Of a stretch of DNA of 64,000 nucleotides, positions 24,087 through 63,086 are shown piece after piece. The notes beneath the pieces were generated by a model that made no database searches, was not told the DNA's origin, and saw only the letters and a program-made list of their open reading frames with translations. Source of the DNA: Escherichia phage PC3; sequence record ON184125; one strand, given 5' to 3'. The position numbers were made by a program, and so were the translations under genes. Every line of letters begins with the position of its first letter. The stretch's first letter is position 1.

Positions 24087-24114
24087 ACCCCGCTGAGGCG
24101 GGGTTTTAGTTTTC
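24087..24114. terminator. Terminator hairpin between convergent genes
   Basis: accccgc-tgag-gcggggt plus TTTTAGTTTT. Confidence 0.5.
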
Positions 24115-39522: not shown

Positions 39523-41031
39523 ATGGCAGACATTCAGATTGTTAAGGTTAACGAAGTCCGCATGCGTTGCATCGCAGATCTTTCTATCAGGGAAGAACTT
39601 AATGACTACTTCAAATTCGAAGACCCGAACTTCGTTCCCAACCCCTTCTCTAAATGGGACGGGGTTGTCCGCCTATTTACCAAGTCATCTGGTCTAATCG
39701 ATATCGGTCTGCTGTTTGAGGTATTTAAGTTCTGTAAGAACAACGGATACACCATTGAACTGGATCCGGCACTGAAGTACATTCAGGACATCCCAGATGA
39801 AGAAATCCGTGAATTCATCGACAGTCTGCATCCAAAGATCCGTACCGAAAATCACGAATATATCGATGCCGAGACTCGTGACTACCAGTACGACACCATC
39901 GCCAAGGCTATGCGTCAAACCAGATGCGTCTGTGAACTGGCTACGAGTGCCGGTAAGTCCTTTATTCTGTATGTCATGGCGCGGTACTACAGGCGGCGCA
40001 GAGAAGCTCTCGAAAGTCCTCTGAAGACGCTTATCGTGGTGCCGTCAATCCACCTAGTCACTCAGCTGTACGACAACTTCGAAGAGTATGCGCATGGCAG
40101 TGATTGGAAGCCCGTTGTTAACACCCAGCTGATTTTTGAGGGCGCGACAAAGGAGATCAGCAAACCAATCGTCATCAGCACATGGCAAGGCATTCAAGAC
40201 CAGCCGAAGGAATGGTTCCACCAGTTCGGTGATATCGTGGTGGATGAAGTGCACACCTCCAAGTCTGAGAAACTGTCTTACATCCTAAACAACTGCATCT
40301 ATGCCGACCAGCGCCTGGGGGTTACAGGTACGCTGGCGAATACCAAAGTTGCCGGGCTTCAGGTGGTGGCTCACTTCGGGGCGTACCATAAGATCATCAC
40401 GGCTCGCGATCTCATCAATCTCGGGTACGCCACTGACATCAAAGTGAAGATGATTCAGCTGAAGCACACTCCGGCGGATGCTGTTGGTCTGGACGGGGAT
40501 TATTCCAAGGAAATAGAATACCTCATTACACACCAGTCCCGCAACGAACTGATCGCCAAGATGGCACTGAATCTGAAAGGAAACGTGGCCATCATGTTCG
40601 AGCGTATTGATGGTCACATGATGGTCGTGTATGATATGCTGAGCGCAGTCAAGCCCAACGTGTTTGTCATCAACGGGGAAGTGAAGATCGAAGACCGCCG
40701 CCGCATACAGAAAGCGATGGAGGATGGAGAGGACATCACCCTGTTGGCATCATACGGGACAATGCAGCAGGGAGTGTCGATCAAGAAGCTACACCACCTT
40801 GTACTGGCACACCCGAGCAAGTCATATATCCGCGTCATACAGACATTGGGTCGTCTGATGCGTCAGCACTCCTCTAAGGACGTCGCGTGGATATGGGACT
40901 TAGTGGATGATGCATCGTACAACGCCAGCACGAACCACACTCTTAGGCACTCTCACGAGCGTTACAAGTTTTACCTGGCAGAGCGCCACCCCGTGGAGTT
41001 CATGAAGGTGGCGCTGGGTAATCACGATTAA
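39523..41031 (+). CDS. uvsW: UvsW-like SF2 DNA helicase
   Basis: ELATSAGKS Walker A, VVDEVH DExH box, helicase C-terminal motifs; CTAAATA upstream, consistent with late expression of T4 uvsW. Confidence 0.8.
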   Translation: MADIQIVKVNEVRMRCIADLSIREELNDYFKFEDPNFVPNPFSKWDGVVRLFTKSSGLIDIGLLFEVFKFCKNNGYTIELDPALKYIQDIPDEEIREFIDSLHPKIRTENHEYIDAETRDYQYDTIAKAMRQTRCVCELATSAGKSFILYVMARYYRRRREALESPLKTLIVVPSIHLVTQLYDNFEEYAHGSDWKPVVNTQLIFEGATKEISKPIVISTWQGIQDQPKEWFHQFGDIVVDEVHTSKSEKLSYILNNCIYADQRLGVTGTLANTKVAGLQVVAHFGAYHKIITARDLINLGYATDIKVKMIQLKHTPADAVGLDGDYSKEIEYLITHQSRNELIAKMALNLKGNVAIMFERIDGHMMVVYDMLSAVKPNVFVINGEVKIEDRRRIQKAMEDGEDITLLASYGTMQQGVSIKKLHHLVLAHPSKSYIRVIQTLGRLMRQHSSKDVAWIWDLVDDASYNASTNHTLRHSHERYKFYLAERHPVEFMKVALGNHD

Positions 41032-46033: not shown

Positions 46034-47254
46034 ATGAAAGATAAAGCCCTGGACGTCCCGTACTGCGGTGTCCGTGAAGAAAAGATAAAGTCGGCCAAAC
46101 CGGTTCTCAGTCCGACCCATACCAGCCTGTCTTACGAATGGATGCGCGATCGTTATCAGATCCACGTCAAGAAGGACGTCCAGCGCCTTCCTGCTCCTTG
46201 GACTGATAATCCCATATTACGGCAGGTCAAGTTCTGTAACGTCCGGAGAGAGCACGACAGGCAGTCTCTCAACCTGATCAACAACATCGTCAACAACGAT
46301 GCTCTGGGTATGGCCGACAAGATGTTCAACTGCGTGATGTTTCGCATGTTCAACCTCTGGGATCCAATCCAGGCTATCGGCGGCGCGATGACGATCAAAG
46401 AATTCGCCGAGATCAACCTCGATGCAACCCGCGAACGACTTCAGAAGTTCGAGGCCGACGGCGGTAAGGTATTCACCAATGCCTTCAACACGGGCGGCCT
46501 GAAGCAATGCCTGGCTTTCCCTGAGATGGTTGTCAACCACAAGGAGCAGCGCTTCGGTGGGATGATGGTGAATCTGATCTGTAAAGATGGTTCAACCCAG
46601 AACATGGATTATAAAGAAGCCAAGGCGATAGCCGAAGCAGAACCGGACTTCTACACCATCGAAGGTTGGGAACCGTACATGCCAATGCGTGTCATCCGCT
46701 CCCTGAAGGCATTCGTCAACAAGTATCCAAATTATTTCCATGACCTGCTGCGCCTTGGTACTCCTTTGGAAGTATACCAGCGCATGTACGACGACATCGA
46801 AGGGCTTGGTCCATTCCTGGCCTATCAGATCTGGGTAGACTTCACTTACATTCCTGAATATCCTTTCAGTGAGAACCACTTCACGGTTGCTGGACCAGGC
46901 TGTCGCGCAGGGATCGACCTGATGTTCCAGGACAAAGATGGCATGACGCATGAAGAATGCATCTTCTGGTTGCGGGACAATCAGGACGCGGTTTATGGCC
47001 CTCTTGGGTATAACAGGGAAGAATTTTGGTCTGCGGAAGAGCCTTGGGATCGCCATTTAAATATAATGGCAGGAGAAAATATGTTTTGTGAACTTCAGAA
47101 ATATACCCGTTGTGTAGAGGCCATACAGCAAGGTAAAAAGCCGCGCGGGAAGGTTGGATATGACGGCGGTGGGGAATACAAAAAGCGCTGTGATGAAGTC
47201 GTGCTCAAACGTGGTTCCGTCAATTTGCTGGACCGTTTGAAGAAACCTGAATAA
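46034..47254 (+). CDS. Hypothetical protein (406 aa)
   Basis: Long ORF, no motif recognised. Confidence 0.5.
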   Translation: MKDKALDVPYCGVREEKIKSAKPVLSPTHTSLSYEWMRDRYQIHVKKDVQRLPAPWTDNPILRQVKFCNVRREHDRQSLNLINNIVNNDALGMADKMFNCVMFRMFNLWDPIQAIGGAMTIKEFAEINLDATRERLQKFEADGGKVFTNAFNTGGLKQCLAFPEMVVNHKEQRFGGMMVNLICKDGSTQNMDYKEAKAIAEAEPDFYTIEGWEPYMPMRVIRSLKAFVNKYPNYFHDLLRLGTPLEVYQRMYDDIEGLGPFLAYQIWVDFTYIPEYPFSENHFTVAGPGCRAGIDLMFQDKDGMTHEECIFWLRDNQDAVYGPLGYNREEFWSAEEPWDRHLNIMAGENMFCELQKYTRCVEAIQQGKKPRGKVGYDGGGEYKKRCDEVVLKRGSVNLLDRLKKPE

Positions 47255-47368
47255 AGATTCCCTTTACTTCGTTCTTCAATAACTCAATCCAGCGTATATT
47301 GACCTCACTTAAACGAAGCGCCCTGGCAAACGGGGCGCACATTTGAACTGAAACAGGAAGATTACATC

Positions 47369-49387
47369 ATGTCAGATTTTAAGCCCTTCGCAGTAGCTGT
47401 CAACAATAACGTGCTGGCCATGTCAGCAACTGGTCTGTTCATGACCAACATCGATAAAGATGCTCTGTGGGATCTGTATCTGTCTTCTTTCCCTGCTGGC
47501 ACTAACCCGCTTTATCGTGAGCGTACCGAGCACGACTGCACCTGCTGTAAACAATTCATCCGTAACATCGGCGGTGTGGTCACCATCGACTCCGACCTGA
47601 ACGTGATCTCTATCTGGGATAACATTCAGCTGGGTAACGAATACGACGTTGTCGCTGCGGCGCTGTCAGCATATGTTAAGCAGCACGCAATCGTCGACGT
47701 GTACTTCAACGACACCAAGAAAGTTGGTGTTGAGTCGAATCACGAAATGAAAGACGGTATTGTCCGCACCTACAACCACTTCCACACCGACCTGCTGGGT
47801 AGCTATGTTCTGCGGGCAGATACCATCGCTTCTAAGAAGGGTGAAATCCGCCAGGCGATTGAAGTGTTTGAGCGCGGCCTGCGTGAACTGTCTCTGGAAT
47901 CGGCTGAAATCGTTCTTGAATTGATTGACCAGAATTCTCTGTATCGCGGTGAAGAGCACAAAGCGGCAGTGCAGGCGTTCGTGGTGAACAAGACCCTGTA
48001 CGAACAAACTGCAGAAGAGAAACGCGCTCTGTGGGCTTGGCGCACTGGCTACCGTGCAAACGGTCATACCCCTCACGGCATTCGTAATACCGTGATTGGC
48101 TCTCTGCTGGTAGACCTCAATGAAGGTCGGGATCTGGAAACCGCCGTGAAGTCCTTTGAAGCCAAAGTCGCTCCGACGAACTACAAGCGCCCAACCGCGC
48201 TGGTCACGAAGTCGATGATTGAAAACGCGCAGAAAGAAGTCGAAGCACTGGGTCTGACTGATTCACTGGGTCGCCGTTATGCCGTGTATGACGATCTGAC
48301 CATCAACAACGTTCTGTTCGCCGACCTAGCAGCTCAGAAGAAGATGGACCCGTTTGCTCAGCTGGCGTCTGAAGTGAAGACTCCGACCAAGTCCCTGGAC
48401 AAGGTTGAAGAGATCACGATCGACGACTTCCTGACCAACGTGTTGCCAAAGGCGCATTCCCTGGAAGTGCTGGTCGAAAACTCTCACATTGGCAACCTGA
48501 TGTCCCTGATCGCTCCGGCCACCGCAGGCGCTCCTAACCTGTTCAAGTGGAACAACGGCTTCAGCTGGTCGTACAATGGCGAAGTGGCCGACTCCATCAA
48601 AGAGCGCGTGAAGACCGCAGGCGGCAATGTCGACAGCTTCCTCCGTGTGTCACTGGCTTGGCATAACAACGACGACCTGGATCTGAGCCTGAACGATCCT
48701 CTTCACAACCACGTGTATTATCACAACCGTCGTTCGACAACTGGCGCAACTCTAGACATCGACATGAACGGTATGGACGGCATTGATCCAAACCGCCGTC
48801 CGGTGGAGAACATCTTCTTCAGCGATGAACGCAAGCTGCGTGATGGTCTGTACGAGTTCTATGTCACTAACTTCAGCCAGCGTGAAACCTGTGATATGGG
48901 ATTCGAAATCGAAGTTGAATACAAAGGCCAGACCAAGCGTTTTTCGCATCCTGGCCTGAAGCACAAAGATCGCACTCTGGCTGTTGTGATTGATGTCCGC
49001 GCTGGACAAGTGGTAGACATCCGTTCTACCCTGAAAGACGACGCTCGCTCTCAGGAAATCTGGGGCATCAAGACCTCCGTCTTCCAGAAGGTACAGCTGG
49101 TTCTGAACTCACCAAACCATTGGGACGGCGAGCAGACTGGCAACAAGCACGTGTTCTTCATCCTGGAAGGTTGTGTTAACCCTGTCGGCACCCGTGGTTT
49201 CTATAACGAATATCTGAAGCCGGAACTTGATAAACACCGCAAGGTTTTTGAAATGTTAGGCAGTAAGATTAAAGTACAGCCAAGCACTGAGCAGCTGTCC
49301 GGTCTGGGCTTCTCTACCACCCAACGCAACCACGTGTTCGTGAAGGTGAGCGGTTCTTTCAACCGCACTGTGAAAGTTGTGTTCTAA
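47369..49387 (+). CDS. Hypothetical protein (672 aa)
   Basis: Long ORF, Cys cluster HDCTCCKQF, no polymerase or ATPase motif recognised. Confidence 0.5.
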   Translation: MSDFKPFAVAVNNNVLAMSATGLFMTNIDKDALWDLYLSSFPAGTNPLYRERTEHDCTCCKQFIRNIGGVVTIDSDLNVISIWDNIQLGNEYDVVAAALSAYVKQHAIVDVYFNDTKKVGVESNHEMKDGIVRTYNHFHTDLLGSYVLRADTIASKKGEIRQAIEVFERGLRELSLESAEIVLELIDQNSLYRGEEHKAAVQAFVVNKTLYEQTAEEKRALWAWRTGYRANGHTPHGIRNTVIGSLLVDLNEGRDLETAVKSFEAKVAPTNYKRPTALVTKSMIENAQKEVEALGLTDSLGRRYAVYDDLTINNVLFADLAAQKKMDPFAQLASEVKTPTKSLDKVEEITIDDFLTNVLPKAHSLEVLVENSHIGNLMSLIAPATAGAPNLFKWNNGFSWSYNGEVADSIKERVKTAGGNVDSFLRVSLAWHNNDDLDLSLNDPLHNHVYYHNRRSTTGATLDIDMNGMDGIDPNRRPVENIFFSDERKLRDGLYEFYVTNFSQRETCDMGFEIEVEYKGQTKRFSHPGLKHKDRTLAVVIDVRAGQVVDIRSTLKDDARSQEIWGIKTSVFQKVQLVLNSPNHWDGEQTGNKHVFFILEGCVNPVGTRGFYNEYLKPELDKHRKVFEMLGSKIKVQPSTEQLSGLGFSTTQRNHVFVKVSGSFNRTVKVVF

Positions 49388-49431
49388 ACCTGATTTGAAA
49401 TTGTAACCCATTCATCATTGAGGATAGTAAA

Positions 49432-49803
49432 ATGTTTGATAAAGCAACCCGTATGAAACTGCGCTTCGAGTCTAACAAAGGTCTGCTGTCTGTTGAGCAG
49501 GTCTGGGACCTGAGCCTGACTGCCCTGAACGAAATGGCGAAAGGTCTGAGCCGTCAGGTGAAAGCAGCAGAAACCGATGAAGAAGATTTCATTGGCACCA
49601 AAAGCAACGTTGACTCCGAACTGCAGCTGCGCTTCGACGTTGTCAAGCACATCATCGGCGTTAAGCTGAAAGAACGTGACGACAGCAGAGAAGCGGCAGA
49701 GCGTAAGGCGAACAACCAGGTTATCCTGGAGCTGATCCAACGTAAGAAACAGCAAGAGCTGGAAAGCAAATCTGTTGAAGAACTGGAAGCACTCCTGAAA
49801 TAA
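49432..49803 (+). CDS. Hypothetical protein (123 aa, charged/helical)
   Basis: ORF followed by a hairpin terminator. Confidence 0.45.
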   Translation: MFDKATRMKLRFESNKGLLSVEQVWDLSLTALNEMAKGLSRQVKAAETDEEDFIGTKSNVDSELQLRFDVVKHIIGVKLKERDDSREAAERKANNQVILELIQRKKQQELESKSVEELEALLK

Positions 49804-49825
49804 TCTGTCTGACCTCAGCCTGAGC

Positions 49826-49854
49826 AACCCCGCCATGTGCGGGGTTTCTTTTGG
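49826..49854 (+). terminator. Rho-independent terminator
   Basis: ccccgc-catgt-gcgggg plus TTTCTTTTGG. Confidence 0.55.
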
Positions 49855-49863
49855 ACAAAGAAT

Positions 49864-50238
49864 ATGAAACCTGTCATTTGTGATTACTGCGGCCTCCCAG
49901 CCGAATTCGTCGGTGGTGATGTTCTCTACCCTCATCGCCCTGACCTCCGCAATCTGAAGTTCTGGGTGTGCACTCCATGTGATGCCCGTGTCGGTTGCCA
50001 TACCCATGGCGACGGCAGACAACCTTTGGGAAGGATGGCGAATGCCGCTCTCCGTGCTGCTAAGCAGGAAGCCCATAGATCGTTTGACCCATTGTGGAAA
50101 AGCGGAGAGAGGAGCAGGAGCGACGCTTATAGTTGGCTGGCGCATAAGCTGGGGATAAAGAAGCGTGAGTGTCATATTGGCTTGTTCGATATCGACATGT
50201 GCCGTAAAGTAGTGGAGGTCTGTAAACAAATATCATAG
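49864..50238 (+). CDS. Zinc-ribbon protein (CxxC...CxxC; DUF3268-like)
   Basis: ICDYCG and CTPCD cysteine pairs. Confidence 0.45.
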   Translation: MKPVICDYCGLPAEFVGGDVLYPHRPDLRNLKFWVCTPCDARVGCHTHGDGRQPLGRMANAALRAAKQEAHRSFDPLWKSGERSRSDAYSWLAHKLGIKKRECHIGLFDIDMCRKVVEVCKQIS

Positions 50239-50246
50239 GATAACAC

Positions 50247-51119
50247 ATGACAAATCGTACTGGCATAAAACTCACTCCTGAAGTCCTGAAGTCACATATC
50301 GCTGAGGTGATTTACGAAGACCGCGAAGTCGGCGGTCACCGGGCTATCACTTGTCATTTCAAGATGGATAACGGCTTCGTCGTTCACGGCACCAAGCCCA
50401 GCACATCCATAGACCCGGCCAACTTTGATGAAGCCCTGGGCAAAGAGATTTCCTACAATAATACCTTCGACCAGCTGTGGCAGCTCGAGGCGTACCGGGC
50501 GCTTGTTGAACAAGATCTGTTGGCCAAAGCCACGGAAACGGCAGAGATCCGGATCGATAAATACGCTGTTGAACGTAGCGCCCTCTATCCGGCCTATCAC
50601 CTCGGCTTCAATGTGATGATTCAGGACGTGATGTTCAGAGCGGAAAATGGCGAGCGCTTCTTGGCGTCTTTCGTTTGTGGGCCGGATGACATGGAACTTG
50701 TTGTTGAATCTCACAACGCCAAATCTCGTAAGGCTGTTAGTGATTTCCTGCGCGCCAACTCCAAACTCGATCTCACTTATTCGCCATTGGTTCTGCGCAT
50801 CGCCAAGATTTGTCATGAAGCCAACCGCGCATACTGTAAGTCTGTTGGTGACGACTCTCAACTGCCTTGGGAACAATCTCCGGCCTGGCAACGTGAGAGC
50901 GCTTGCAAAGGTGTTATCTTCCATCTCACTGGTGATCGTAAGCCCAGCGAATCACATGAGAGATGGATGGCGGAGAAGGAGTCTGAGGGTTGGGTGTATG
51001 GCCCAGTCAAAGACCCTCAGACCAAACAACACCCTTGCATGGTTCCGTATGGAGAACTCCCGGTACAACAACGCTCCAAAGATTATATTTTCAAATCCAT
51101 TGTAGACTCCTTTAAATAA
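50247..51119 (+). CDS. Hypothetical protein with C-terminal RyR-like domain
   Basis: LPWEQSPAWQRESACKGVIFHLTGDRKPSE...GWVYGPVKDPQTKQHPCMVPYGELP recalls the RyR domain seen in phage proteins. Confidence 0.45.
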   Translation: MTNRTGIKLTPEVLKSHIAEVIYEDREVGGHRAITCHFKMDNGFVVHGTKPSTSIDPANFDEALGKEISYNNTFDQLWQLEAYRALVEQDLLAKATETAEIRIDKYAVERSALYPAYHLGFNVMIQDVMFRAENGERFLASFVCGPDDMELVVESHNAKSRKAVSDFLRANSKLDLTYSPLVLRIAKICHEANRAYCKSVGDDSQLPWEQSPAWQRESACKGVIFHLTGDRKPSESHERWMAEKESEGWVYGPVKDPQTKQHPCMVPYGELPVQQRSKDYIFKSIVDSFK

Positions 51120-51152
51120 GCTCTGAATAATATTTCAACCTGTCAATAATAT

Positions 51153-51188
51153 AATGCCCGGTTATATTCAATCGGGCATTTTTATTAT
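51153..51188 (+). terminator. Terminator hairpin preceding the early promoter
   Basis: aatgcccg-(12-nt loop)-cgggcatt plus TTTTATTAT. Confidence 0.5.
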
Positions 51189-51193
51189 ATTAA

Positions 51194-51224
51194 TTGACAT
51201 CAATACCGCCTGTCGTAATATAAT
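51194..51224 (+). promoter_or_regulatory. Sigma70-like early promoter (TTGACA-16-TAATAT / -19-TATAAT)
   Basis: Canonical -35 TTGACA with AT-rich -10 just after a terminator hairpin; drives the vWA operon. Confidence 0.55.
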
Positions 51225-51269
51225 AGTTCCATGTTGAAATAGTTGGGAAATATAACTCACGAGAGCCTG

Positions 51270-51446
51270 ATGACCGACAACAAATTAAAACGTGCCGGAC
51301 TTGATTGTCTTGACAAATCATTCCGCCCCAGTGATGTTCTGGTCGCCCAAATGGAAAACAACCGGGATTTCATTGAAACTATGCTGGAGAACGCCGACGC
51401 GAACTCCAAACACTCCAAAGCCCAAAAAGGTCAAAACGATGATTGA
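51270..51446 (+). CDS. Small hypothetical protein (58 aa), translationally coupled to the vWA gene
   Basis: ATG downstream of the sigma70-like promoter; stop overlaps the next start (ATGATTGA). Confidence 0.35.
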   Translation: MTDNKLKRAGLDCLDKSFRPSDVLVAQMENNRDFIETMLENADANSKHSKAQKGQNDD

Positions 51447-53640
51447 ATCATTAACATTTAAGAATGCGGTTGCGACCGTCGCGCCGTCTAACCATGTAAT
51501 CGTTGTGGATATCTCCGGTTCCATGTATCGTTCACTTCCAGAAGTCCGTAAGCATCTGAAGGAGAACATGCCTTCCCTGGTGAAACCCGAAGATACTGTG
51601 AGCATCCTTTACTTTTCATCTCGCGGTGATTTCGGAACGGTATTTGCCGGGCGTCAGATCGGTGCCGCATCTGACCTGAGCGAGCTGAACAAACTGATCG
51701 ATCGCTTCCTGCAACCGTCCGGATGTACTGGCTTTGTTGAGCCGTTGAAACTGGCAATGGACACTGCTCGTGGCCTGAAGAAGCCTGGCTATGTCAACAA
51801 CCTGGCGTTCATGACTGACGGGTATGACAACTGCTGGCGTACCAACGAAATTCTACTGGTTGCTGAGACCCTGCCATTTGCTTTCGATAACATTACATTT
51901 ATCGAATATGGCTGGTACTGTAACCGCGAACTGCTGGCGCAGATGGCCGAACGCTCTGGTGCTACTCACGTGTTTGCCGAAGGTCAGACCGAATACCAGA
52001 CCGAGCTGGAAAACGTGCTGAAGTCATCAGTGCCGAAGGTGGTTGTTGATGTGCCTCTGCTATACACCCACGCCATCTATGTTGAAAACGGCGTAGCAAC
52101 TGTTCTGGCGGTACAGCCGGATGAAGACCATCCTATCGGCCACGTGAGCATCCCTGAGAGCGTCGCCAAGCTGTGGGTTGTAAACCCTAACATGATCGAC
52201 CAGCTTGATGCGCTGGCGGATATCCAGGCGGCATACGTGCTGGCGTTCTACGGCGTACACATTATGGACGCGGACCTGGTGTGGGCTGCACTGAAGAAAA
52301 CGGGTGACGTTCGCTTCATCAAACAGTACAGCAACTGCTTCACCAAGCAGGACTACTCCAACATCAAAGTTGATCTGACCCAGGCCATCGTTGATGACCA
52401 GCTGCGCGGCGTTGACGGTATTGACTATGACCTGGTTCCGGCTGAAGATGCGACGACCGTCGTTGACGTGCTGACGTATCTGGCTGAAGCTGGCGTGTGT
52501 GTTGCTACCAAACATCCTATGTTCTCCTACAAGAGCATCGGGCGCGGTACTGTGCAGAAAACCGACGACACCGAAGACAAGCTGGCAGAACAGATCGCGA
52601 ATGCTCAGTCCAAAGAAGAGCGTAAAGCCCTGGCTCTCAAGCTGGCAGAGCACGAAGAGTGGAACCCGACGTTCGAACCTACCAACGACCTGGGTGTTGT
52701 GCCAATCAGCGATTTGGTCTATAACTCCGAGCGCCCGAACATCAGTGTGCGTACAATTCAACACGGTACTGTGGCTGTGCCTGAATTCGCACAGAAGAAG
52801 TTTGGCCTGCCTGAAGAACTGGATACTTTCCAGTGGCGCAACTACACCATCGTCAAAGACGGTATCATTAACGTGAAGACTCTGCCGTTCAAGGCTGATA
52901 TCGAAGTTGTACAGAAGCTGATCGAAATGGGTGTCCACGTGTTTGGTGGTCCGGAAGTGTTTGTCCTGAACCTGGAAAGCGTACCGCTGGTCAACCGCGC
53001 CATGGTCAAAAACATCAGTGCTGCTCAGTTCTTTGCGGATAATGTCCGTCTGGAAGCCCTGAAAGGCAAGCAGAAGGTGCTGAAGTTCTATCGAGACGCC
53101 CTGGTTGGTAAGGGTAACGCCAAAGGCCTGGCAGTACAGTACGGCGCTGAGGCGGCCGAGTTCCTGTCCTCCTACGGTATCCGCGATTACGGCTTCTCAC
53201 CGAAGACTGAGACCAAAGAGTCTACCGACTTCTACATGAGCCGTGAGCTGAACGTTAAGATCGCCGGGGCGTCTTCACTACCGAGCATCGCGGCAGTACA
53301 GAAGAAGATTGCCGAGAACAAGAAACTCAATGCTGGTGACTTGTTCATCGCTAATGCGCTGAAGGAGTACGAAGCATTCGTGAAGTCTCCTATGATCACT
53401 GCCGTGCCTGAATCCTTACAGAAATATCTGATCGAAAACTGGATCGACGCTGCTGCCAAGGCGGCCATCACCGAAGTCCGCGCCCTGAACAAGACACTGT
53501 CTAAAGTGGTTTATGGTATCGTTGCTGGTCATGGCTGGTTCACCGACCTCGACCTGGAAGAGTCCACCATGGAAGTTGAAGTGGATGGCGTGAAGTACAA
53601 GGTCACTGCCGAACTGACAGAGAAAGAAATCAAAATCTAA
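51439..53640 (+). CDS. von Willebrand factor A (vWA) domain protein (733 aa)
   Basis: MIDAS motif VVVDISGSM near the N-terminus; long C-terminal extension of unknown function. Confidence 0.65.
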   Translation: MIESLTFKNAVATVAPSNHVIVVDISGSMYRSLPEVRKHLKENMPSLVKPEDTVSILYFSSRGDFGTVFAGRQIGAASDLSELNKLIDRFLQPSGCTGFVEPLKLAMDTARGLKKPGYVNNLAFMTDGYDNCWRTNEILLVAETLPFAFDNITFIEYGWYCNRELLAQMAERSGATHVFAEGQTEYQTELENVLKSSVPKVVVDVPLLYTHAIYVENGVATVLAVQPDEDHPIGHVSIPESVAKLWVVNPNMIDQLDALADIQAAYVLAFYGVHIMDADLVWAALKKTGDVRFIKQYSNCFTKQDYSNIKVDLTQAIVDDQLRGVDGIDYDLVPAEDATTVVDVLTYLAEAGVCVATKHPMFSYKSIGRGTVQKTDDTEDKLAEQIANAQSKEERKALALKLAEHEEWNPTFEPTNDLGVVPISDLVYNSERPNISVRTIQHGTVAVPEFAQKKFGLPEELDTFQWRNYTIVKDGIINVKTLPFKADIEVVQKLIEMGVHVFGGPEVFVLNLESVPLVNRAMVKNISAAQFFADNVRLEALKGKQKVLKFYRDALVGKGNAKGLAVQYGAEAAEFLSSYGIRDYGFSPKTETKESTDFYMSRELNVKIAGASSLPSIAAVQKKIAENKKLNAGDLFIANALKEYEAFVKSPMITAVPESLQKYLIENWIDAAAKAAITEVRALNKTLSKVVYGIVAGHGWFTDLDLEESTMEVEVDGVKYKVTAELTEKEIKI

Positions 53641-53645
53641 TCCAA

Positions 53646-53670
53646 CGGGCGGGGCAACCCGCCTTTCTTT
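53646..53670 (+). terminator. Rho-independent terminator after the vWA gene
   Basis: ggcggg-gcaa-cccgcc plus TTTCTTT. Confidence 0.55.
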
Positions 53671-53681
53671 GGAGTAATAAC

Positions 53682-54005
53682 ATGAGCAGTAAACCAACAT
53701 ATGTTGAAGTCATGCGTCATCTGGCTCAGTACGCCACTGACAATCTGAATATGGATCTGTGGCGTGACGATGACAAGCGCAAATTGCTGGACGACGTGGC
53801 ATCTCAGAACGAGGACGCCCTGGACAAGCTGGCTGGTCTCCGTACCAAGAAAGACCTCGGCGGTGACGAACTGGATGCCATCGAAATCGTAATGGAACTA
53901 GAAGAAGAGTTTCAGGTCGAAATCGACGACGGGTGGCTAGGTAGTAAAGGCGATGACCCGACCATGGGTGAACTCGCTGAACTCGTGGTTGCCCTGCGCA
54001 AATAA
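53682..54005 (+). CDS. Acyl-carrier-protein-like protein, conserved Ser replaced by Glu
   Basis: KDLGGDELDAIEIVMELEEEFQVEI aligns with the ACP core [24 protein letters not shown]; Glu occupies the phosphopantetheine site. Confidence 0.6.
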   Translation: MSSKPTYVEVMRHLAQYATDNLNMDLWRDDDKRKLLDDVASQNEDALDKLAGLRTKKDLGGDELDAIEIVMELEEEFQVEIDDGWLGSKGDDPTMGELAELVVALRK

Positions 54006-58820: not shown

Positions 58821-59099
58821 ATGAATCGTACTGAATTTGTTGCCCACATTGCTTCGACCCAGAATATCACCAAAGGCGAAGCGGAGAAAGTAGTGGCATC
58901 CTTTATCGACGGTGTTAAAACTGCAGTTGCTGCAGGCGCATCTGTACAGCTGGTTGGCTTCGGTGCGTTCGAAGTGAAACACCAAGAAGCGCGTGAAGGT
59001 CGCAACCCTCTGAACGGCCAGACCATTCAGATCGCGGCGAAAAACGTTGTGAAATTCAAAGTGGGCGAAGGTCTGAAGAACGCTGCCAACGGCAAGTAA
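58821..59099 (+). CDS. HU/IHF-family histone-like DNA-binding protein
   Basis: VQLVGFGAFEVKHQEAREGRNPLNGQTIQIAAKNV matches the HU core; followed by a hairpin terminator. Confidence 0.85.
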   Translation: MNRTEFVAHIASTQNITKGEAEKVVASFIDGVKTAVAAGASVQLVGFGAFEVKHQEAREGRNPLNGQTIQIAAKNVVKFKVGEGLKNAANGK

Positions 59100-59147
59100 T
59101 TCTATCTGACGCGCGGCCAGGCTCTGCAATCAGGGTATGGCAAAAGA

Positions 59148-59184
59148 GAAAGCCGGAGTACAATGCTCCGGCTTTTTCGTTCTT
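59148..59184 (+). terminator. Rho-independent terminator after the HU gene
   Basis: aaagccggag-tacaatg-ctccggcttt plus TTTTCGTTCTT. Confidence 0.65.
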
Positions 59185-59227
59185 GGGGATCGGGTAAACT
59201 ATAGGCGAATCCCATAGGAGGAAGAAA

Positions 59228-60946
59228 GTGACAGCATTCAACCAATATACCAAGGCGCTTGACGGCGTCGGACCAGTCAGCATAGACCGCATCAAGTCTC
59301 TTGCCACTGAGTTCTTCCCGTATGACACCGCCAACCCCGGCCAGATGGAATGCATCGTTGAAGCCATTGATGCCCTTGTGAATAAGAAATTCAAACACGT
59401 GATCATCGAGGCTCCGACTGGTGTAGGTAAATCCCTCATCGGCACTACCATCCATAACGTGCTTCGCCATTTGGTTCTTGAGCACAACCCGTATGGTCAG
59501 TTCCGCACGTCTATCACGACGCCGACCAAAGGTTTACAGGATCAGTATGCAGCAGAGAAAGCCGTGGCGATAGACATCCTGAAGGGCAAGAAGAACTATC
59601 GTTGCCACATCAGTCCCGACCTATACTACAACGCCATTCAGTGCCGTATGGCATGCCGTGATGGCCACTGTAGTAAGAATCGTTGCCCATATGTTCAGGC
59701 GCGTAGACAGTGGACCGACGTCTCCTCCCTGCGCTGCACCAACGCCGCCATGATGGTGGAGATGTGTACGACGATTTGTATGAAGCCGGAAAACCGTGCC
59801 GATATGCTGATCCTTGACGAGTGTCATAAGATGCCCTCTACGCTCCTAGAGCATACTATCATGGAATACAACATAAAGGCTGTGGAAGGGTTGCTTACGA
59901 TCCCCGAGGGAGTGCCTATCGTGGAGACCATCAAGGATATCATCATCCGCACAGAGAACTATGAATTGGGCAAGCTGTATTCCCTGTCTGGTGAGATGCA
60001 TGCGATATTTGATGAACTGCACGGCAAGGTTGAATCCCTGTTGGAAACTCTTGAGGAACTGGTAGAGGACGAGCGCCTGACTGAAGCCCAGGTGATGAAG
60101 CTGTCTGATATTATTGATACTCTTCACAACCTCAGCGACTACTGTGGTATCATGGGGCAGACCAACGCCAGCACTTTCATCGTGCAGGAGAAGGACAAGG
60201 GTATGATTCAGTTCAAGCCTGTCATCGCCTCTGATGTATCCCAGTTCGGCCTGTTCCGCAAGGGTGACTACCACGTTCACATGTCGGCTACCATTTGTGG
60301 GATTGACTCGTACGCCCGGTCACTGGGTATCCGCGAGGGTGAGTACCACAAGATACAGATCGGCAACCCTATCCCGATTGAGAACCGGAAAGTCAACTAC
60401 ATGCCCATCATGAAGATGACAGCGAACATGGGTGACTACGAGATGAAGAAGCTGGCTGAATACGTGGATGAAATTATCGCGTTCCACCCTGGGCAGTCTG
60501 GCATCATTCACACAGTCAGTTATGACCGCGCCCTGGCTCTACAAAAGTTCAGTAAGTACCGGAATATGATTCACGTTCCTCGTACTCGTAAGGCTCTGAT
60601 GGACATCATGGAACACGCGTTCAGGACGAAGACACCTTGTGTCATCGCCAGTCCGGCCATGGAAGAGGGGTATGACTTCAAAGGCGATTATAGTCGATTT
60701 CAGATCTTGATCAAGGTGCCATATGATTACCTTGGTGATCCTCTGGTGGCCCACGTCAACAGCGTGGACCCATCGGCGTACTTCAGGATGGCGGTACTGC
60801 GTATCGTTCAGATGTGTGGGCGTTCGGTCAGGGGTGTGAATGACTGGGCTGCGACGTACATCCTTGATTCTTCTTTTGAATCACTGATGATGCGCAACCC
60901 AGAGTTCTTCCCCGCTTGGTTCACTGATGCCGTGTTTGAGGTTTAG
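59228..60946 (+). CDS. DinG/XPD-like (Rad3-family) Fe-S helicase
   Basis: GTG start after AGGAGG; Walker A IEAPTGVGKS, DEAH-like LILDECH, cysteine cluster CHISPD...CRMACRDGHCSKNRCPY between them. Confidence 0.75.
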   Translation: MTAFNQYTKALDGVGPVSIDRIKSLATEFFPYDTANPGQMECIVEAIDALVNKKFKHVIIEAPTGVGKSLIGTTIHNVLRHLVLEHNPYGQFRTSITTPTKGLQDQYAAEKAVAIDILKGKKNYRCHISPDLYYNAIQCRMACRDGHCSKNRCPYVQARRQWTDVSSLRCTNAAMMVEMCTTICMKPENRADMLILDECHKMPSTLLEHTIMEYNIKAVEGLLTIPEGVPIVETIKDIIIRTENYELGKLYSLSGEMHAIFDELHGKVESLLETLEELVEDERLTEAQVMKLSDIIDTLHNLSDYCGIMGQTNASTFIVQEKDKGMIQFKPVIASDVSQFGLFRKGDYHVHMSATICGIDSYARSLGIREGEYHKIQIGNPIPIENRKVNYMPIMKMTANMGDYEMKKLAEYVDEIIAFHPGQSGIIHTVSYDRALALQKFSKYRNMIHVPRTRKALMDIMEHAFRTKTPCVIASPAMEEGYDFKGDYSRFQILIKVPYDYLGDPLVAHVNSVDPSAYFRMAVLRIVQMCGRSVRGVNDWAATYILDSSFESLMMRNPEFFPAWFTDAVFEV

Positions 60947-61710
60947 TAACCCGCAACGAAGGACAGATGGCACTTGACATTCGGTTCCAACGACGTCACA
61001 GAAACCGTCATATTGTCCGTATCTTGGCTGAAGTCAATGGTGGCGAGAGGTTTGGTCTGAATATGGTTGTAGACACTGTAGATCAGATCCTCGCCACGAT
61101 ACCCTACCTTCCCGTCGGTGTCTTGCCAATGACCCAGTGTCTCATCGTAGACATGCACTCTGAACTCGATCATATGGAAGAGTGCCTTGGGGATGTCCTT
61201 GAGTACGCTGGTGCCAACCACGGGAATTTCTATGCTGGAATTATTGGAGTTCCCTTCATAGACCGAAGCCCATGCAAAGGTAGGATCACCCCCAGCAACA
61301 GGGGTTCGCTTCCAGTATTGGAATTCTGGGTTGCCCGAAGCGTTCTTCTGAAGTAGAATGACCTCACCACCTTTGAAGTTCGAGGTATCGATGTCGCCTC
61401 GCTGAAGTTCATCTGCTGGAGATCCAATAAATTTCCAGCCTTCGCGATCCAGTAAAGACTTATAATAGTCGGTGAACACGTTGCTGTCTTCTGCATCGTT
61501 GATGGCATCTTTGAGACCTTGGCCTGTCACCATCTCGTTGAGCTTCAACCACATGTTCTTGACAGCAGAAGCTGCTGCGACTTGTCCAGCAGTCCCACCT
61601 GCAGCATAATCATAGATGATATCTTCTGACTTGATAGCATCATAGATAGAGAGGAGCAATTGCTCAATCTGCGGGGCGGTGAGACTGAAACGATATGCGC
61701 GGGGTGCCAT
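60943..61710 (-). CDS. Hypothetical protein (minus strand, 255 aa)
   Basis: AAGAGGA SD before the ATG at 61710; convergent with the helicase, divergent from RNase H. Confidence 0.5.
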   Translation of the reverse strand: MAPRAYRFSLTAPQIEQLLLSIYDAIKSEDIIYDYAAGGTAGQVAAASAVKNMWLKLNEMVTGQGLKDAINDAEDSNVFTDYYKSLLDREGWKFIGSPADELQRGDIDTSNFKGGEVILLQKNASGNPEFQYWKRTPVAGGDPTFAWASVYEGNSNNSSIEIPVVGTSVLKDIPKALFHMIEFRVHVYDETLGHWQDTDGKVGYRGEDLIYSVYNHIQTKPLATIDFSQDTDNMTVSVTSLEPNVKCHLSFVAGY

Positions 61711-61755
61711 AGTTTCATTCCTCTTTCTATAAAACCAGTTTGGGATATTTATATC

Positions 61756-62283
61756 ATGATAGAAATTTATTCTGACGGGGGTTCTAACCCGAAGACCAAC
61801 CAGGCCGCAGGATGGGCATTTGTCATCAGGCCAATAACGGGTATGCAATGGAAGGTGTTCTTCGGTCATCTACCTCCCCCGTCCACTAACAATATCGCCG
61901 AGTTGTTGGGTGTGACCAACGCATTGAAGCTACTGTGGGCATTCTCAGGAAAGGGTGAGCGCAGAATACCAAAGGCAACAATTTGGTCTGACAGCCAATA
62001 TGCTATCAAGAGCGTCACCGAATGGCGAGCGAAGTGGGAGTATCAGGGTTTCCCAGAAAAGAACGTTGAACTCATCAAAGATCTGTTCAGAATCTATGAT
62101 CTCGTTTGTTCAATTTGTGATGTTGAACTAAAATGGGTTAAGGGTCATGCGGGGCACGAAGGCAACGAACTTGCCGATGACTGGGCCACAGCAGCCAAAA
62201 ACGACAGCAACTTCCTGATTGAGAATGACAAGATCTCGGTGAAGAAGGTTGTTGGATCTTTTGATGAATTTATCGGTATCTGA
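61756..62283 (+). CDS. rnhA: Ribonuclease HI
   Basis: IEIYSDGGSNP, IWSDSQYAIKSV, WVKGHAGHEGNELADDWA match RNase HI catalytic blocks. Confidence 0.85.
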   Translation: MIEIYSDGGSNPKTNQAAGWAFVIRPITGMQWKVFFGHLPPPSTNNIAELLGVTNALKLLWAFSGKGERRIPKATIWSDSQYAIKSVTEWRAKWEYQGFPEKNVELIKDLFRIYDLVCSICDVELKWVKGHAGHEGNELADDWATAAKNDSNFLIENDKISVKKVVGSFDEFIGI

Positions 62284-62294
62284 GGGATTTCATA

Positions 62295-63086
62295 ATGGGA
62301 ATGAACTTCGTGGACAGAGGGGAGAATGTCGTCAAATATTTCACAGACGAAGATAACGAGCGTGTCATCAGTATCCTTCGTGATTGGATCCCTGCTCGTA
62401 AGAAGGCTCTGGCTGAAGGCACCAGGCTTCCAAAGATCCCCAACTATGTTGCTCTACAGGTCCAGCGCATCATCACCAAGATGAGCACCCGCTACAACTA
62501 TCGCGACTATCCCTTCCGTGAAGACATGGTCTCTGAAGCAATAGTCAACATCTTGCGCTACCTCCACACATTTGACGTCGAACACATTGGAAAGAAAGGG
62601 AAGATCAACTTCTTCTCTTGGGTGACCATGTGTGCTGATCGATCATTCGCTCGTAAACTGAATATCGAAGAAGAGCACACGTACATTAAATTGCGCTCAT
62701 TTGAAGAGGCGGGTGGGTTCGCAGGCCTGGCAGACGATCCCGACTTCCAACAAGAGGTCTTTGTTGATGCTACAGGAATTGGCATGGACTTCCGTGAACG
62801 TATCGGCAACTTTGAGAACAAAAAGGACGCTCAAAGGCAGAAGGAACGAGAGAAGGTGGAGGCAGCTCGTCTCGCAGAATCGAATAAAAAGATTGCGAAA
62901 GGCATACTTCAATACATGGCGCAGGCTAAGAATACGGTAACAGCGCAGGCCGAAGACAATTCAGATCAGGACTTCGGCAAAACCCAATTCAATCTGGAAG
63001 ATGATATCTGTGCGATGGAACCAGATTGGGAAGCCCTCAAACAAAGATTAGAAGAACGGGAGAAAAAGAACAATGGCGATTGCTAA
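62295..63086 (+). CDS. gp55: Late-transcription sigma factor gp55-like
   Basis: N-terminal half parallels T4 gp55 (ISILRDW vs IIDWK; NILRYLHTFD vs IKGLHNFD); next to gp47 as in T4. Confidence 0.6.
   Translation: MGMNFVDRGENVVKYFTDEDNERVISILRDWIPARKKALAEGTRLPKIPNYVALQVQRIITKMSTRYNYRDYPFREDMVSEAIVNILRYLHTFDVEHIGKKGKINFFSWVTMCADRSFARKLNIEEEHTYIKLRSFEEAGGFAGLADDPDFQQEVFVDATGIGMDFRERIGNFENKKDAQRQKEREKVEAARLAESNKKIAKGILQYMAQAKNTVTAQAEDNSDQDFGKTQFNLEDDICAMEPDWEALKQRLEEREKKNNGDC

What the first reader, a model, noticed from the sequence alone, without database searches (positions are those of the whole stretch)
59228..60946. DinG/XPD-like Fe-S helicase with GTG start in a T4-like background
T4 itself encodes Dda, UvsW and gp41 helicases but, as far as I recall, no Rad3-family Fe-S helicase. 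This gene has Walker A, a DECH box and a four-to-five-cysteine cluster between them, and starts at GTG 6 nt after AGGAGG.
Basis: partly seen in the sequence, partly recalled or inferred. Interest (0 to 1): 0.45.

Follow-up and report, generated by a model that had tools for sequence, protein, structure and literature searches.

The report
Phage DinG/XPD-type iron-sulfur DNA helicase
This is a real, already annotated DNA helicase gene of an Ackermannviridae phage (Escherichia phage PH4); it belongs to the well-known DinG/XPD family that carries an iron-sulfur cluster, so it is an ordinary replication/repair gene and not a surprise.

Summary
Window 59228-60946 (+) is a 572-aa ORF that starts at GTG, 6 nt after AGGAGG. 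It has a Walker A motif, a DECH box and a cysteine cluster between them.

The window is Escherichia phage PH4 (ON184126.1, Ackermannviridae), where this ORF is already annotated "ATP-dependent helicase".

Evidence that it is an XPD/Rad3/DinG-family SF2 helicase:
- Profile and PDB-sequence searches agree (Pfam Helicase_C_2; PHROG 2488; best PDB matches DinG, XPD, Rad3, FANCJ).

Four cysteines (C126, C139, C148, C153) lie between motifs Ia and II. They are invariant in 119 homologues down to about 35% identity and nearly so in 134 more distant representatives. They align with Fe-S ligand positions of E. coli and Finegoldia DinG. Cluster binding itself is inferred.

The gene is a conserved core gene between an HU-like gene and RNase H/gp55/gp47/gp46. 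PH4 has gp41 and UvsW but no detectable Dda, so a role as a 5'-3' accessory helicase is plausible but untested. "T4-like" holds only as T4 superfamily.

Homologues are already labelled Rad3-related or DinG. Interest is low.

The parts
59149..59175 (.). GC-rich hairpin (AAAGCCGGAG-loop-CTCCGGCTTT) followed by a T-run. It is a terminator-like element that separates the upstream HU-like gene from the helicase gene.
   Evidence: The consensus scan reports it on the minus strand. On the + strand the stem is followed by TTTTTCGTT. The stem is kept by compensatory changes in relatives. Function is inferred.
59183..59203 (+). Conserved 21-nt upstream element TTGGGGATCGGGTAAACTATA, between the hairpin and the Shine-Dalgarno sequence. 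Possibly a gene-specific regulatory site or promoter.
   Evidence: Conserved across five Ackermannviridae genera while the flanks vary. It occurs once in the window and once in the whole PH4 genome. It does not match the sigma-70 consensus. Function unknown.
59216..59221 (+). Shine-Dalgarno sequence AGGAGG, 6 nt upstream of the GTG start.
   Evidence: Read directly. Conserved in relatives.
59228..60946 (+). Coding sequence of the 572-aa DinG/XPD-family helicase (GTG start, TAG stop). Equals PH4_000065 / URX66043.1.
   Evidence: PHROG 2488 at E = 1.5e-259.
59336..59344 (+). Q-motif region (P37-G38-Q39).
   Evidence: Q39 invariant and G38 nearly invariant.
59411..59434 (+). Motif I / Walker A, APTGVGKS (aa 62-69).
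   Evidence: P63, G65, G67 and K68 are invariant.
59519..59545 (+). Motif Ia, TPTKGLQDQ (aa 98-106).
   Evidence: L103, Q104 and Q106 are invariant. It aligns with the LQDQ of E. coli DinG.
59585..59722 (+). Compact Fe-S domain (about aa 120-165) with the four invariant cysteines: C126 (59603-59605), C139 (59642-59644), C148 (59669-59671) and C153 (59684-59686). The conserved CPY...R..W segment follows.
   Evidence: The four Cys are 119/119 in close and medium homologues and invariant in A1. They are kept in a 29%-identical Rhizobium phage protein. In 134 distant representatives the counts are 134, 124, 126 and 134. C148/C153 align with DinG C199/C205. C126/C139/C153 align with Finegoldia DinG C282/C294/C307, whose Fe-S cluster is seen in the crystal (PMC13650095). 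Boundaries are approximate. Metal binding is inferred.
59816..59827 (+). Motif II / Walker B, DECH (aa 197-200), a DEAH-type box.
   Evidence: D197, E198 and H200 are invariant. C199 is C in 110/119 close homologues and alternates with A in distant ones.
59864..60247 (+). Arch domain (about aa 213-340), mostly long helices, inserted between motifs II and III.
   Evidence: Secondary structure of the AF2 model. The position of the insertion is read from the sequence. The region aligns with the DinG arch. Whole-fold matches to XPD/DinG. Boundaries are approximate.
60284..60301 (+). Motif III, SATICG (aa 353-358).
   Evidence: T355, C357 and G358 are invariant in A1.
60320..60943 (+). Second RecA-like motor domain (about aa 365-572), with motif V SPAMEEGYD (60650-60676) and motif VI QMCGRSVRG (60809-60835).
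   Evidence: Pfam Helicase_C_2 on aa 465-565. Q528, G531, R532, R535 and G536 are invariant.
58821..59099 (+). Context: upstream HU-type DNA-binding protein gene.
   Evidence: Pfam Bac_DNA_binding at E = 6e-30. This neighbour is conserved in Ackermannviridae.
60943..61710 (-). Context: convergent 255-aa ORF that overlaps the helicase stop codon by 4 nt. It has a T4-type late-promoter motif TATAAATA at 61753-61746 (-), 35 nt before its ATG.
   Evidence: It has no Pfam hit. Some relatives call it a structural protein.
61756..62283 (+). Context: RNase HI-type ribonuclease gene. It is followed by gp55 (62301-63086) and gp47 (63073 onward, running off the window).
   Evidence: Pfam RNase_H at E = 4.6e-25. 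Annotation. The same order is found in Ag3 and in Vibrio phage K474.

Best explanation
The ORF encodes a superfamily-2 DNA helicase of the XPD/Rad3/DinG family.

Shown:
- All SF2 motor motifs are present.
- The domain order is that of the family: motor domain 1 carries two insertions, a small cysteine-rich domain between motifs Ia and II and a helical Arch domain between motifs II and III. Motor domain 2 follows.
- The predicted fold matches solved DinG and XPD structures before anything else.
- Four cysteines in the small domain are conserved across a large, mostly viral clade.

Inferred from the family:
- The four cysteines hold a [4Fe-4S] cluster.
- The enzyme loads on single-stranded DNA, moves 5' to 3' using ATP, threads the strand through the pore formed by the Fe-S domain, the Arch domain and motor domain 1, and separates the duplex at the Fe-S wedge.

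Inferred from context:
- It is a non-late gene of the phage replication/recombination module.
- It most likely acts as an accessory helicase that clears R-loops, RNA polymerase or other obstacles, or that processes recombination intermediates. T4 assigns this job to the unrelated 5'-3' helicase Dda, which this phage lacks.
- My estimate for this specific biological role is only about 0.35. The confidence figure below is for the molecular identity.
For: - Sequence profiles: Helicase_C_2 at 4.8e-12, above its cut-off. PHROG 2488 'DNA helicase' at 1.5e-259. NCBIfam best hits are DinG and YoaA. The family profile finds in the PDB: DinG 1.5e-18, Finegoldia DinG 2.6e-17, XPD 2.5e-12, then Rad3, FANCJ and CHL1.
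- Cysteines: C126, C139, C148 and C153 are invariant in 119 homologues. They are kept at 29% identity and in 124-134 of 134 distant representatives. They are positionally equivalent to DinG C199/C205 and to FmaDinG C282/C294/C307. The family definition and the essential role of the cluster come from PMC3378879 and PMC13650095.
- Context: the order HU - helicase - (convergent ORF) - RNase H - gp55 - gp47 - gp46 is conserved from PH4 and Ag3 to a 45%-identical Vibrio phage homologue.
- Helicase census of PH4: gp41, UvsW and this protein. T4 Dda finds nothing in PH4 (best E = 0.67), while the gp41 control gives 9e-77.
- Distribution: Dda-like genes occur in 2186 phage records, led by Escherichia, Klebsiella and Pseudomonas phages, with T4-type genomes filling the upper ranks of the sampled list. 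This helicase occurs in 497 records of other lineages.
- No TATAAATA late-promoter motif lies upstream of the gene.
- E. coli DinG promotes replication across transcribed DNA, possibly by unwinding R-loops or displacing RNA polymerase (PMC2770101 abstract; PMC3378879).
Against: - No experiment exists on any member of this phage clade. None was found.
- Pfam DEAD_2 (PF06733), the usual N-terminal signature of the family, does not hit at E <= 1.
- NCBIfam DinG and YoaA scores (66 and 56 bits) are far below the equivalog cut-offs (598 and 680), so it is not an orthologue of either.
- The model coordinates could not be inspected, so the geometry of the four thiols is unverified.
- A few distant homologues show only three cysteines in the region.
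- Absence of Dda rests on tblastn and on annotation only.
- The link to RNase H may simply reflect inherited gene order.
Confidence: 0.85

Rival explanations
1. The fold is the same, but the four cysteines bind a structural zinc ion, or nothing, instead of a [4Fe-4S] cluster. The protein would then be a DinG-like helicase with a pseudo-Fe-S domain.
For: The cysteine spacing is tight (C-x12-C-x8-C-x4-C) and no metal analysis exists. Family members without a cluster are known: CasDinG has a vestigial FeS domain (PMC10450177 abstract) and pseudo-FeS variants are described (PMC13650095).
Confidence: 0.1
2. The protein is the same, but its main job is recombination or repair together with gp46/gp47, UvsX/UvsY and the RuvC-like resolvase. 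Examples are end processing, D-loop handling or lesion bypass in the manner of YoaA. Clearing obstacles ahead of the fork would not be its main job.
For: The gene lies 2 kb from gp47/gp46 in PH4, Ag3 and Vibrio phage K474. YoaA is the second-best NCBIfam hit. In a Rhizobium phage the homologue lies near an endonuclease V (DenV-type) gene and UvsY.
Against: Nothing separates this from the fork-accessory role with the data at hand. The gene order is inherited within one lineage, and in Acinetobacter and Aeromonas phages the neighbours differ.
Confidence: 0.3
3. It is a defence-related or counter-defence DinG, akin to CasDinG of type IV CRISPR systems, and not a replication gene.
Against: - The curated Csf4 equivalog scores 11.6 bits against a cut-off of 400.
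- CasDinG lacks the Fe-S cysteines.
- No cas genes or CRISPR array are annotated near the gene.
- It is a syntenic core gene of a lytic phage family inside the replication module.
- DinG and FmaDinG score better than CasDinG.
- The PADLOC model is probably a generic DinG/Rad3 profile. I could not check this.
Confidence: 0.03
4. It acts in late transcription, opening DNA for the gp55/gp33/gp45 machinery, by analogy with XPD in TFIIH.
For: The gene lies 1.4 kb upstream of gp55. XPD/Rad3 within TFIIH complexes are among the fold hits.
Against: T4-type late transcription needs no helicase (established knowledge of the gp55/gp33/gp45 system; see also PMC3121705). The closest relatives by sequence and fold are bacterial DinG proteins, not TFIIH XPD. 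Proximity to gp55 is shared with RNase H and gp46/47, which are replication/recombination genes.
Confidence: 0.03

Closest known systems
Bacterial DinG (E. coli DinG, PDB 6FWR/6FWS)
   Same: It is the best sequence-profile match in the PDB (1.5e-18) and the best Foldseek match (3.8e-27). The four-domain layout is the same: motor domain 1, the Fe-S domain, the Arch domain and motor domain 2. The last two Fe-S cysteines and the CP(F/Y) motif align. The presumed 5'-3' polarity and accessory role at forks and R-loops are shared.
   Different: - Only 16-17% identity.
- 572 aa against 716 aa.
- The cysteine-bearing stretch spans 28 residues (C126-C153) against 86 in DinG (C120-C205). C120 is recalled from the literature, not tested here.
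- It fails the DinG equivalog cut-off (66 bits against 598), so it is not an orthologue.
- It is encoded by a lytic phage, not by an SOS-regulated chromosomal gene.
Finegoldia magna EndoDinG (PDB 9KQH; PMC13650095)
   Different: FmaDinG carries an N-terminal PD-(D/E)XK nuclease domain that is absent here. Identity is 15%. The fourth ligand sits at a different position: Fma C289 aligns with phage Y134, and phage C148 aligns with Fma Y301.
Archaeal/eukaryotic XPD (Rad3), FANCJ, CHL1
   Same: Same family and fold. The Fe-S domain lies between Walker A and Walker B, and the Arch domain lies between motifs II and III, as the family is defined (PMC3378879).
   Different: These are more distant than DinG. 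The HMM alignments cover only motif II onward. There are no TFIIH-type partners.
Phage and archaeal-virus 'Rad3-related DNA helicase' / PHROG 2488
   Same: Direct homologues. PHROG 2488 matches end to end. The gene occurs in 497 phage records, including Ackermannviridae, Vibrio, Aeromonas, Acinetobacter and Rhizobium phages, haloarchaeal tailed viruses (HF1, HRTV, HJTV) and Lak megaphages. Some are already named Rad3-related or DinG.
   Different: Nothing essential. This protein is simply the PH4 copy. None of these appears to have been studied biochemically.
T4 Dda (SF1B 5'-3' helicase)
   Same: Possible functional counterpart: a monomeric 5'-3' accessory helicase in a T4-type replisome. The two are found in largely different phage lineages.
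   Different: It belongs to an unrelated superfamily and has no Fe-S or Arch domains. tblastn of Dda against the PH4 genome finds no hit at the helicase locus. Equivalence of function is an inference only.

Membership tests
XPD/Rad3/DinG family of SF2 Fe-S helicases | Complete SF2 motor motifs (Q, I, Ia, II of DEAH type, III, V, VI). | tested here: met
   PGQ 37-39, APTGVGKS 62-69, TPTKGLQDQ 98-106, DECH 197-200, SATICG 353-358, SPAMEEGYD 475-483 and QMCGRSVRG 528-536. The key residues are invariant.
XPD/Rad3/DinG family of SF2 Fe-S helicases | Family-specific C-terminal motor domain (Pfam Helicase_C_2, PF13307). | tested here: met
   46.7 bits, E = 4.8e-12, cut-off 25.3, on aa 465-565.
XPD/Rad3/DinG family of SF2 Fe-S helicases | Four conserved cysteines in a domain inserted between Walker A/motif Ia and Walker B (sequence level). 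| tested here: met
   C126, C139, C148 and C153 are 119/119 and invariant in A1. In distant representatives the counts are 134, 124, 126 and 134 of 134. They align with ligand positions of DinG and FmaDinG. The family definition comes from PMC3378879.
XPD/Rad3/DinG family of SF2 Fe-S helicases | Actual binding of a [4Fe-4S] cluster. | not testable with these tools
   This needs purified protein. The thiol geometry in the model could not be measured either, because the coordinates are not exposed.
XPD/Rad3/DinG family of SF2 Fe-S helicases | Arch domain inserted in motor domain 1 between motifs II and III, and an overall four-domain fold. | tested here: met
XPD/Rad3/DinG family of SF2 Fe-S helicases | Match to Pfam DEAD_2 (PF06733). 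This is a diagnostic profile for the N-terminal half, not a property of the protein. | tested here: not met
   No hit at E <= 1. The N-terminal half is matched by ResIII and DEAD instead. Only one listed homologue (P0061) carries PF06733. The shortened Fe-S domain probably explains the miss. The structural features that the profile stands for are met (rows above).
XPD/Rad3/DinG family of SF2 Fe-S helicases | ATP-dependent 5'-3' translocation and unwinding. | not testable with these tools
   Biochemical assay needed. Inferred from the family (PMC3378879; PMC13650095).
E. coli DinG / YoaA orthologue groups (NCBIfam NF008729, NF053712) | Score above the curated equivalog cut-off. | tested here: not met
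   DinG scores 66.4 bits against 598, and YoaA 55.6 against 680. The protein is related to both but is an orthologue of neither.
CasDinG / Csf4 of type IV CRISPR-Cas | Csf4 equivalog score, a degenerate Fe-S domain without cysteines, and location in a type IV cas operon. | tested here: not met
   TIGR03117 scores 11.6 bits against 400. Four invariant cysteines are present. The neighbours are HU, RNase H, gp55 and gp47, not cas genes. The PADLOC 'typeIV_DinG associated' model does hit at 172.8 bits, but it has no curated threshold and may be a generic DinG profile.
PHROG 2488 (phage DNA helicase) | Full-length profile match. | tested here: met
   E = 1.5e-259, 863.7 bits, aa 19-572 on profile positions 3-579 of 579.
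T4 Dda-type SF1B helicases | Sequence similarity to Dda. | tested here: not met
   tblastn of T4 Dda against the whole PH4 genome gives a best E of 0.67, at the PhoH locus and not at this gene. Any relation is one of function only.

The most novel reading that the evidence does not exclude
The compact-Fe-S phage clade has at least 1131 representatives at 50% identity with E <= 1e-30. It could be the standing replacement for Dda in those T4-superfamily and other large phages that lack Dda. If so, their genome replication would depend on the host's Fe-S assembly machinery and on its iron or redox state. That would be a host dependency, and possibly a regulatory input, that T4 itself does not have.
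Probability: 0.2. Interest if true: 0.4.

Novelty: already known. Interest (0 to 1): 0.15.

Why it matters
It matters little beyond correct annotation.

- The gene could be labelled "DinG/XPD-family Fe-S DNA helicase" in place of the generic "ATP-dependent helicase".
- Some RefSeq entries, such as PhiSH19, start the gene at an internal ATG and so cut off the N-terminus, including the Q motif.
- If the Fe-S cluster and the accessory role were confirmed, it would give a first biochemical example of a phage-encoded Fe-S helicase. It would also link the replication of Ackermannviridae, which are used in phage therapy and biocontrol, to host iron-sulfur metabolism.
- This would extend known biology. 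It would not open a new kind of system.

Tried and rejected
Family membership was established through Helicase_C_2, a PDB profile search and the fold instead.
- **Orthology to DinG, YoaA, Rad3 or Csf4** in NCBIfam: all scores are far below the cut-offs.
- **AlphaFold-database fold search (afdb50):** the library was not available.
- **Literature on phage-encoded DinG/XPD/Fe-S helicases**: nothing specific was found. A 2026 review of Fe-S proteins in nucleic-acid metabolism, which includes viruses, yielded no passage on a phage helicase for the terms searched.
- **Transcriptome data for Ackermannviridae,** to time the gene's expression: nothing usable.
- **Is the conserved upstream 21-mer a repeated phage promoter?** It occurs only once in the genome.
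- **Sigma-70 promoter scan:** only a 9/12 match, whose -10 hexamer lies in the terminator hairpin (its last base in the 3' arm). This is not convincing.
- **T4-type late promoter (TATAAATA) upstream of the helicase:** absent.
- **Dda homologue in PH4:** none by tblastn. A Walker-A census found only gp41, UvsW, gp44, gp46, PhoH, a kinase-like ORF and this protein.
- **Measuring Cys-Cys distances in the model:** not possible, because the coordinates are not exposed.
- **Foreign origin of the gene:** there is no sign of it. Gene GC is 51.3% against 48.8% for the genome.
Full report
**1. The observation**

The stretch 59228-60946 on the + strand is an open reading frame of 572 codons plus a TAG stop. 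It starts with GTG. AGGAGG lies at 59216-59221, six bases upstream.

No other start codon lies in frame before M40. M40 sits just after the conserved PGQ motif, so the GTG is the only sensible start. The GTG and the Shine-Dalgarno sequence are conserved in Agtrevirus Ag3, Kuttervirus PhiSH19, Taipeivirus KpS110 and Miltonvirus 2050H1.

The protein has APTGVGKS at residues 62-69 and DECH at 197-200. Eight cysteines lie between them (126, 139, 143, 148, 153, 170, 180, 184).

**2. Where the window comes from**

The ORF is 100% identical, at the same coordinates, to CDS PH4_000065 ("ATP-dependent helicase") of Escherichia phage PH4, ON184126.1. PH4 belongs to Ackermannviridae, subfamily Aglimvirinae. 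The window is therefore bases 1-64000 of that record.

The well-annotated close relative Ag3 carries the T4 core set: rIIA/B, gp41, gp59, gp61, gp43, gp45, gp44/62, gp32, gp46/47, UvsW/X/Y, gp55, gp33 and T4-type head and tail genes. PH4's own sparser annotation names many of the same genes.

The paper describing Ag3 places it in the "T4 superfamily". It counts the homologue of this gene (orf125) among three proteins with helicase activity (PMC3121705).

"T4-like background" is thus right in the broad sense only. The phage is ViI-like, not a Straboviridae phage. T4's own helicases are gp41, UvsW and Dda (PMC2993671).

**3. What the protein is**

Sequence profiles:
- Pfam gives Helicase_C_2, the C-terminal domain typical of XPD/DinG, at 46.7 bits against a cut-off of 25.3.
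- ResIII and DEAD hits cover the N-terminal motor domain.
- DEAD_2 does not hit.
- PHROG 2488 "DNA helicase" matches end to end at 1.5e-259.
- In NCBIfam the best hits are DinG (66 bits) and YoaA (56 bits), then a DinG-related model and Rad3. All are far below the equivalog cut-offs.
- A profile of 82 homologues (A1), searched against PDB sequences, finds E. coli DinG (1.5e-18), Finegoldia magna DinG (2.6e-17), XPD (2.5e-12), Rad3, FANCJ and CHL1 before any other helicase.

Structure:
- An AlphaFold2 model built on that alignment is confident, with mean pLDDT 91.5 and pTM 0.89.
- Foldseek against the PDB returns XPD/DinG-family helicases in its best 39 places. E. coli DinG is first at 3.8e-27.

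The order of elements along the sequence is that of the family:
- motifs Q, I and Ia;
- a cysteine-rich insertion;
- motif II;
- a long helical insertion (the Arch domain, about residues 213-340);
- motif III;
- the second motor domain with motifs V and VI.

**4. The cysteines**

In an alignment of 119 full-length homologues reaching down to about 35% identity, C126, C139, C148 and C153 are present in all 119. C143, C170, C180 and C184 vary (confirmed in A1).

The four are also present in a Rhizobium phage protein of 29% identity. An exhaustive search returned more distant cluster representatives (28-48% identity). Among 134 of these, C126 and C153 are in 134, C139 in 124 and C148 in 126. Most of the apparent misses are alignment shifts in sequences that still show four cysteines, and a few have only three.

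The pattern is C-x12-C-x8-C-x4-C-P-Y.

- In the HMM alignments, C148 and C153 fall on C199 and C205 of E. coli DinG. I recall these as cluster ligands from the literature. Together with C194 they follow the family's cysteine pattern.
- C126, C139 and C153 fall on C282, C294 and C307 of FmaDinG. That protein has an equally short cysteine stretch. Its crystal shows Fe-S density, and its C289A/C294A mutant is unstable (PMC13650095).

That the cluster is really bound remains an inference.

**5. Context and distribution**

An HU-type DNA-binding protein gene lies upstream at 58821-59099 (Pfam 6e-30). A GC-rich hairpin with a T-run follows at 59149-59175.

Downstream, a convergent 255-aa ORF (60943-61710, minus strand) overlaps the helicase stop by four bases. 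Then come:
- an RNase HI-type gene at 61756-62283 (Pfam 4.6e-25);
- gp55 and gp47;
- gp46 (unnamed in PH4's annotation, named in Ag3), which starts just past the window's end.

The same order is found in Ag3 and in a Vibrio phage whose helicase is only 45% identical. In Aeromonas, Acinetobacter and Rhizobium phages the neighbours differ in part.

The gene is found at 80% coverage or more in 175 phage records by DNA search and in 398 by protein search. Weaker matches occur in haloarchaeal tailed viruses, Lak megaphages and others, 497 records in all. Several of these are already named "Rad3-related DNA helicase" or "ATP-dependent DNA helicase DinG".

An exhaustive search of 1.84 billion cluster representatives finds 1131 at E <= 1e-30 and 4440 at E <= 1e-10. 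The clade is large.

**6. How it probably works**

*Shown:* motor motifs, domain order, fold and conserved cysteines.

*Inferred from the family:* the enzyme binds single-stranded DNA and moves 5' to 3' by ATP hydrolysis between the two motor domains. It passes the strand through the pore bounded by the Fe-S domain, the Arch domain and motor domain 1, and splits the duplex at the Fe-S domain.

*Inferred from context:*
- PH4 has a gp41 homologue (97872-99296; T4 gp41 finds it at 9e-77).
- It has a UvsW homologue (window 39523-41031; Pfam UvsW_N).
- Nothing in PH4 resembles T4 Dda (best tblastn E = 0.67, at the PhoH gene).
- Dda-like genes occur in 2186 phage records. These are led by Escherichia, Klebsiella and Pseudomonas phages, and T4-type genomes fill the upper ranks of the sampled list. 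The present helicase is in other lineages.
- E. coli DinG helps replication through transcribed regions, possibly by removing R-loops or RNA polymerase (PMC2770101; PMC3378879).

I therefore think the most likely role is that of a 5'-3' accessory helicase of the phage replisome and recombination system. This is the niche Dda fills in T4, and the nearby RNase H would be a natural partner on R-loops.

I give this specific role about 0.35. A mainly recombination/repair role with gp46/47 is about as likely. No TATAAATA late-promoter motif precedes the gene, which fits early or middle expression, but no expression data were found.

**7. Rivals**

- *Structural zinc site or an empty pseudo-Fe-S domain.* This cannot be excluded without protein work. 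The known cluster-less relatives have lost their cysteines, and the nearest solved structure, with the same compact spacing, does hold a cluster.
- *Defence-type DinG.* The PADLOC model "typeIV_DinG, CAS-IV-A associated" matches at 172.8 bits. Against this, the curated Csf4 model gives 11.6 bits against 400, the cysteines are present, no cas genes are annotated nearby, and the gene is a syntenic core gene of a lytic phage.
- *A part in late transcription by analogy with TFIIH.* This has only proximity to gp55 in its favour.

**8. Comparison and novelty**

The protein works like DinG or XPD and passes the structural membership tests of that family. It is not an orthologue of DinG, YoaA, XPD or Csf4.

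It is a member of a phage clade (PHROG 2488) that public annotation already calls a helicase, and in places Rad3-related or DinG. The exact sequence is deposited and annotated.

I found no paper that studies any phage member, or that mentions an Fe-S cluster in one. That absence is limited to the library searched.

I rate the finding as already known in kind and in instance. It carries a modest untested point, the cluster and the Dda-like role.

**9. Verdict**

Specialists would not be surprised, and no long-standing question becomes testable. Interest 0.15.

Noticed in passing
window 59183-59203: A 21-nt element, TTGGGGATCGGGTAAACTATA, lies between the HU-gene hairpin and the helicase Shine-Dalgarno sequence. 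It is conserved across five Ackermannviridae genera while the flanks diverge, and it occurs only once in the PH4 genome. It does not fit a sigma-70 or T4 late promoter. It may be a gene-specific regulatory site.
   Followed up: partly
window 60943-61753 (minus strand): A convergent 255-aa ORF (60943-61710) overlaps the helicase stop codon by 4 nt and has no Pfam hit. A perfect T4-type late-promoter motif, TATAAATA (61753-61746), lies 35 nt before its ATG. Some relatives annotate it as a virion structural protein. Of the five TATAAATA copies in the genome, four lie 24-40 nt upstream of a start codon in the right orientation.
   Followed up: partly
L014 (Salmonella phage PhiSH19 NC_019530.1), locus 401-2122: The RefSeq annotation starts the helicase at an internal ATG (equivalent to M40), which removes the N-terminus and the Q motif. 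The GTG and Shine-Dalgarno sequence used in PH4 are conserved there. A 533-aa Klebsiella phage entry (P0012) looks truncated in the same way.
   Followed up: partly
window 59149-59175: The terminator-like hairpin after the HU gene reads as a terminator on both strands. A sigma-70-like -10 hexamer (TACAAT) lies almost wholly in its loop and belongs to a 9/12 promoter-like match (59137-59164). Probably chance.
   Followed up: no
window 24106-25794 (-) and 32010-33875 (+): Two large ORFs annotated as homing endonucleases sit among the structural genes (tail tube/portal and major head protein). They share a near-identical C-terminal motif, GY(N/D)VEGKTED, so they look like paralogues.
   Followed up: no
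L007 29130-32594 (PH4 record 139130-142594, outside the window): The DNA polymerase (gp43) is annotated as two separate CDSs with a gap of about 400 nt. In Ag3 it is a single 3-kb gene. This could be an intervening element, a frameshift or an assembly error.
   Followed up: no
window 46034-54005: A run of large ORFs of unknown function (homologues noted in Ralstonia phage RSL1 and in RB43) ends with an acyl-carrier-protein gene. From memory, ViI-like phages hypermodify thymidine, and this may be part of that pathway. Delftia phage PhiW-14, another phage with hypermodified thymine, also carries a homologue of the helicase (P0074).
   Followed up: no
window 59228-60946 (protein level): The PADLOC model PDLC01439 ('typeIV_DinG; CAS-IV-A; associated') matches the phage helicase over nearly its full length (172.8 bits). 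This is much better than the curated Csf4 models. Either that model is a generic DinG/Rad3 profile, or some DinG proteins linked to type IV systems are close to this phage clade.
   Followed up: partly
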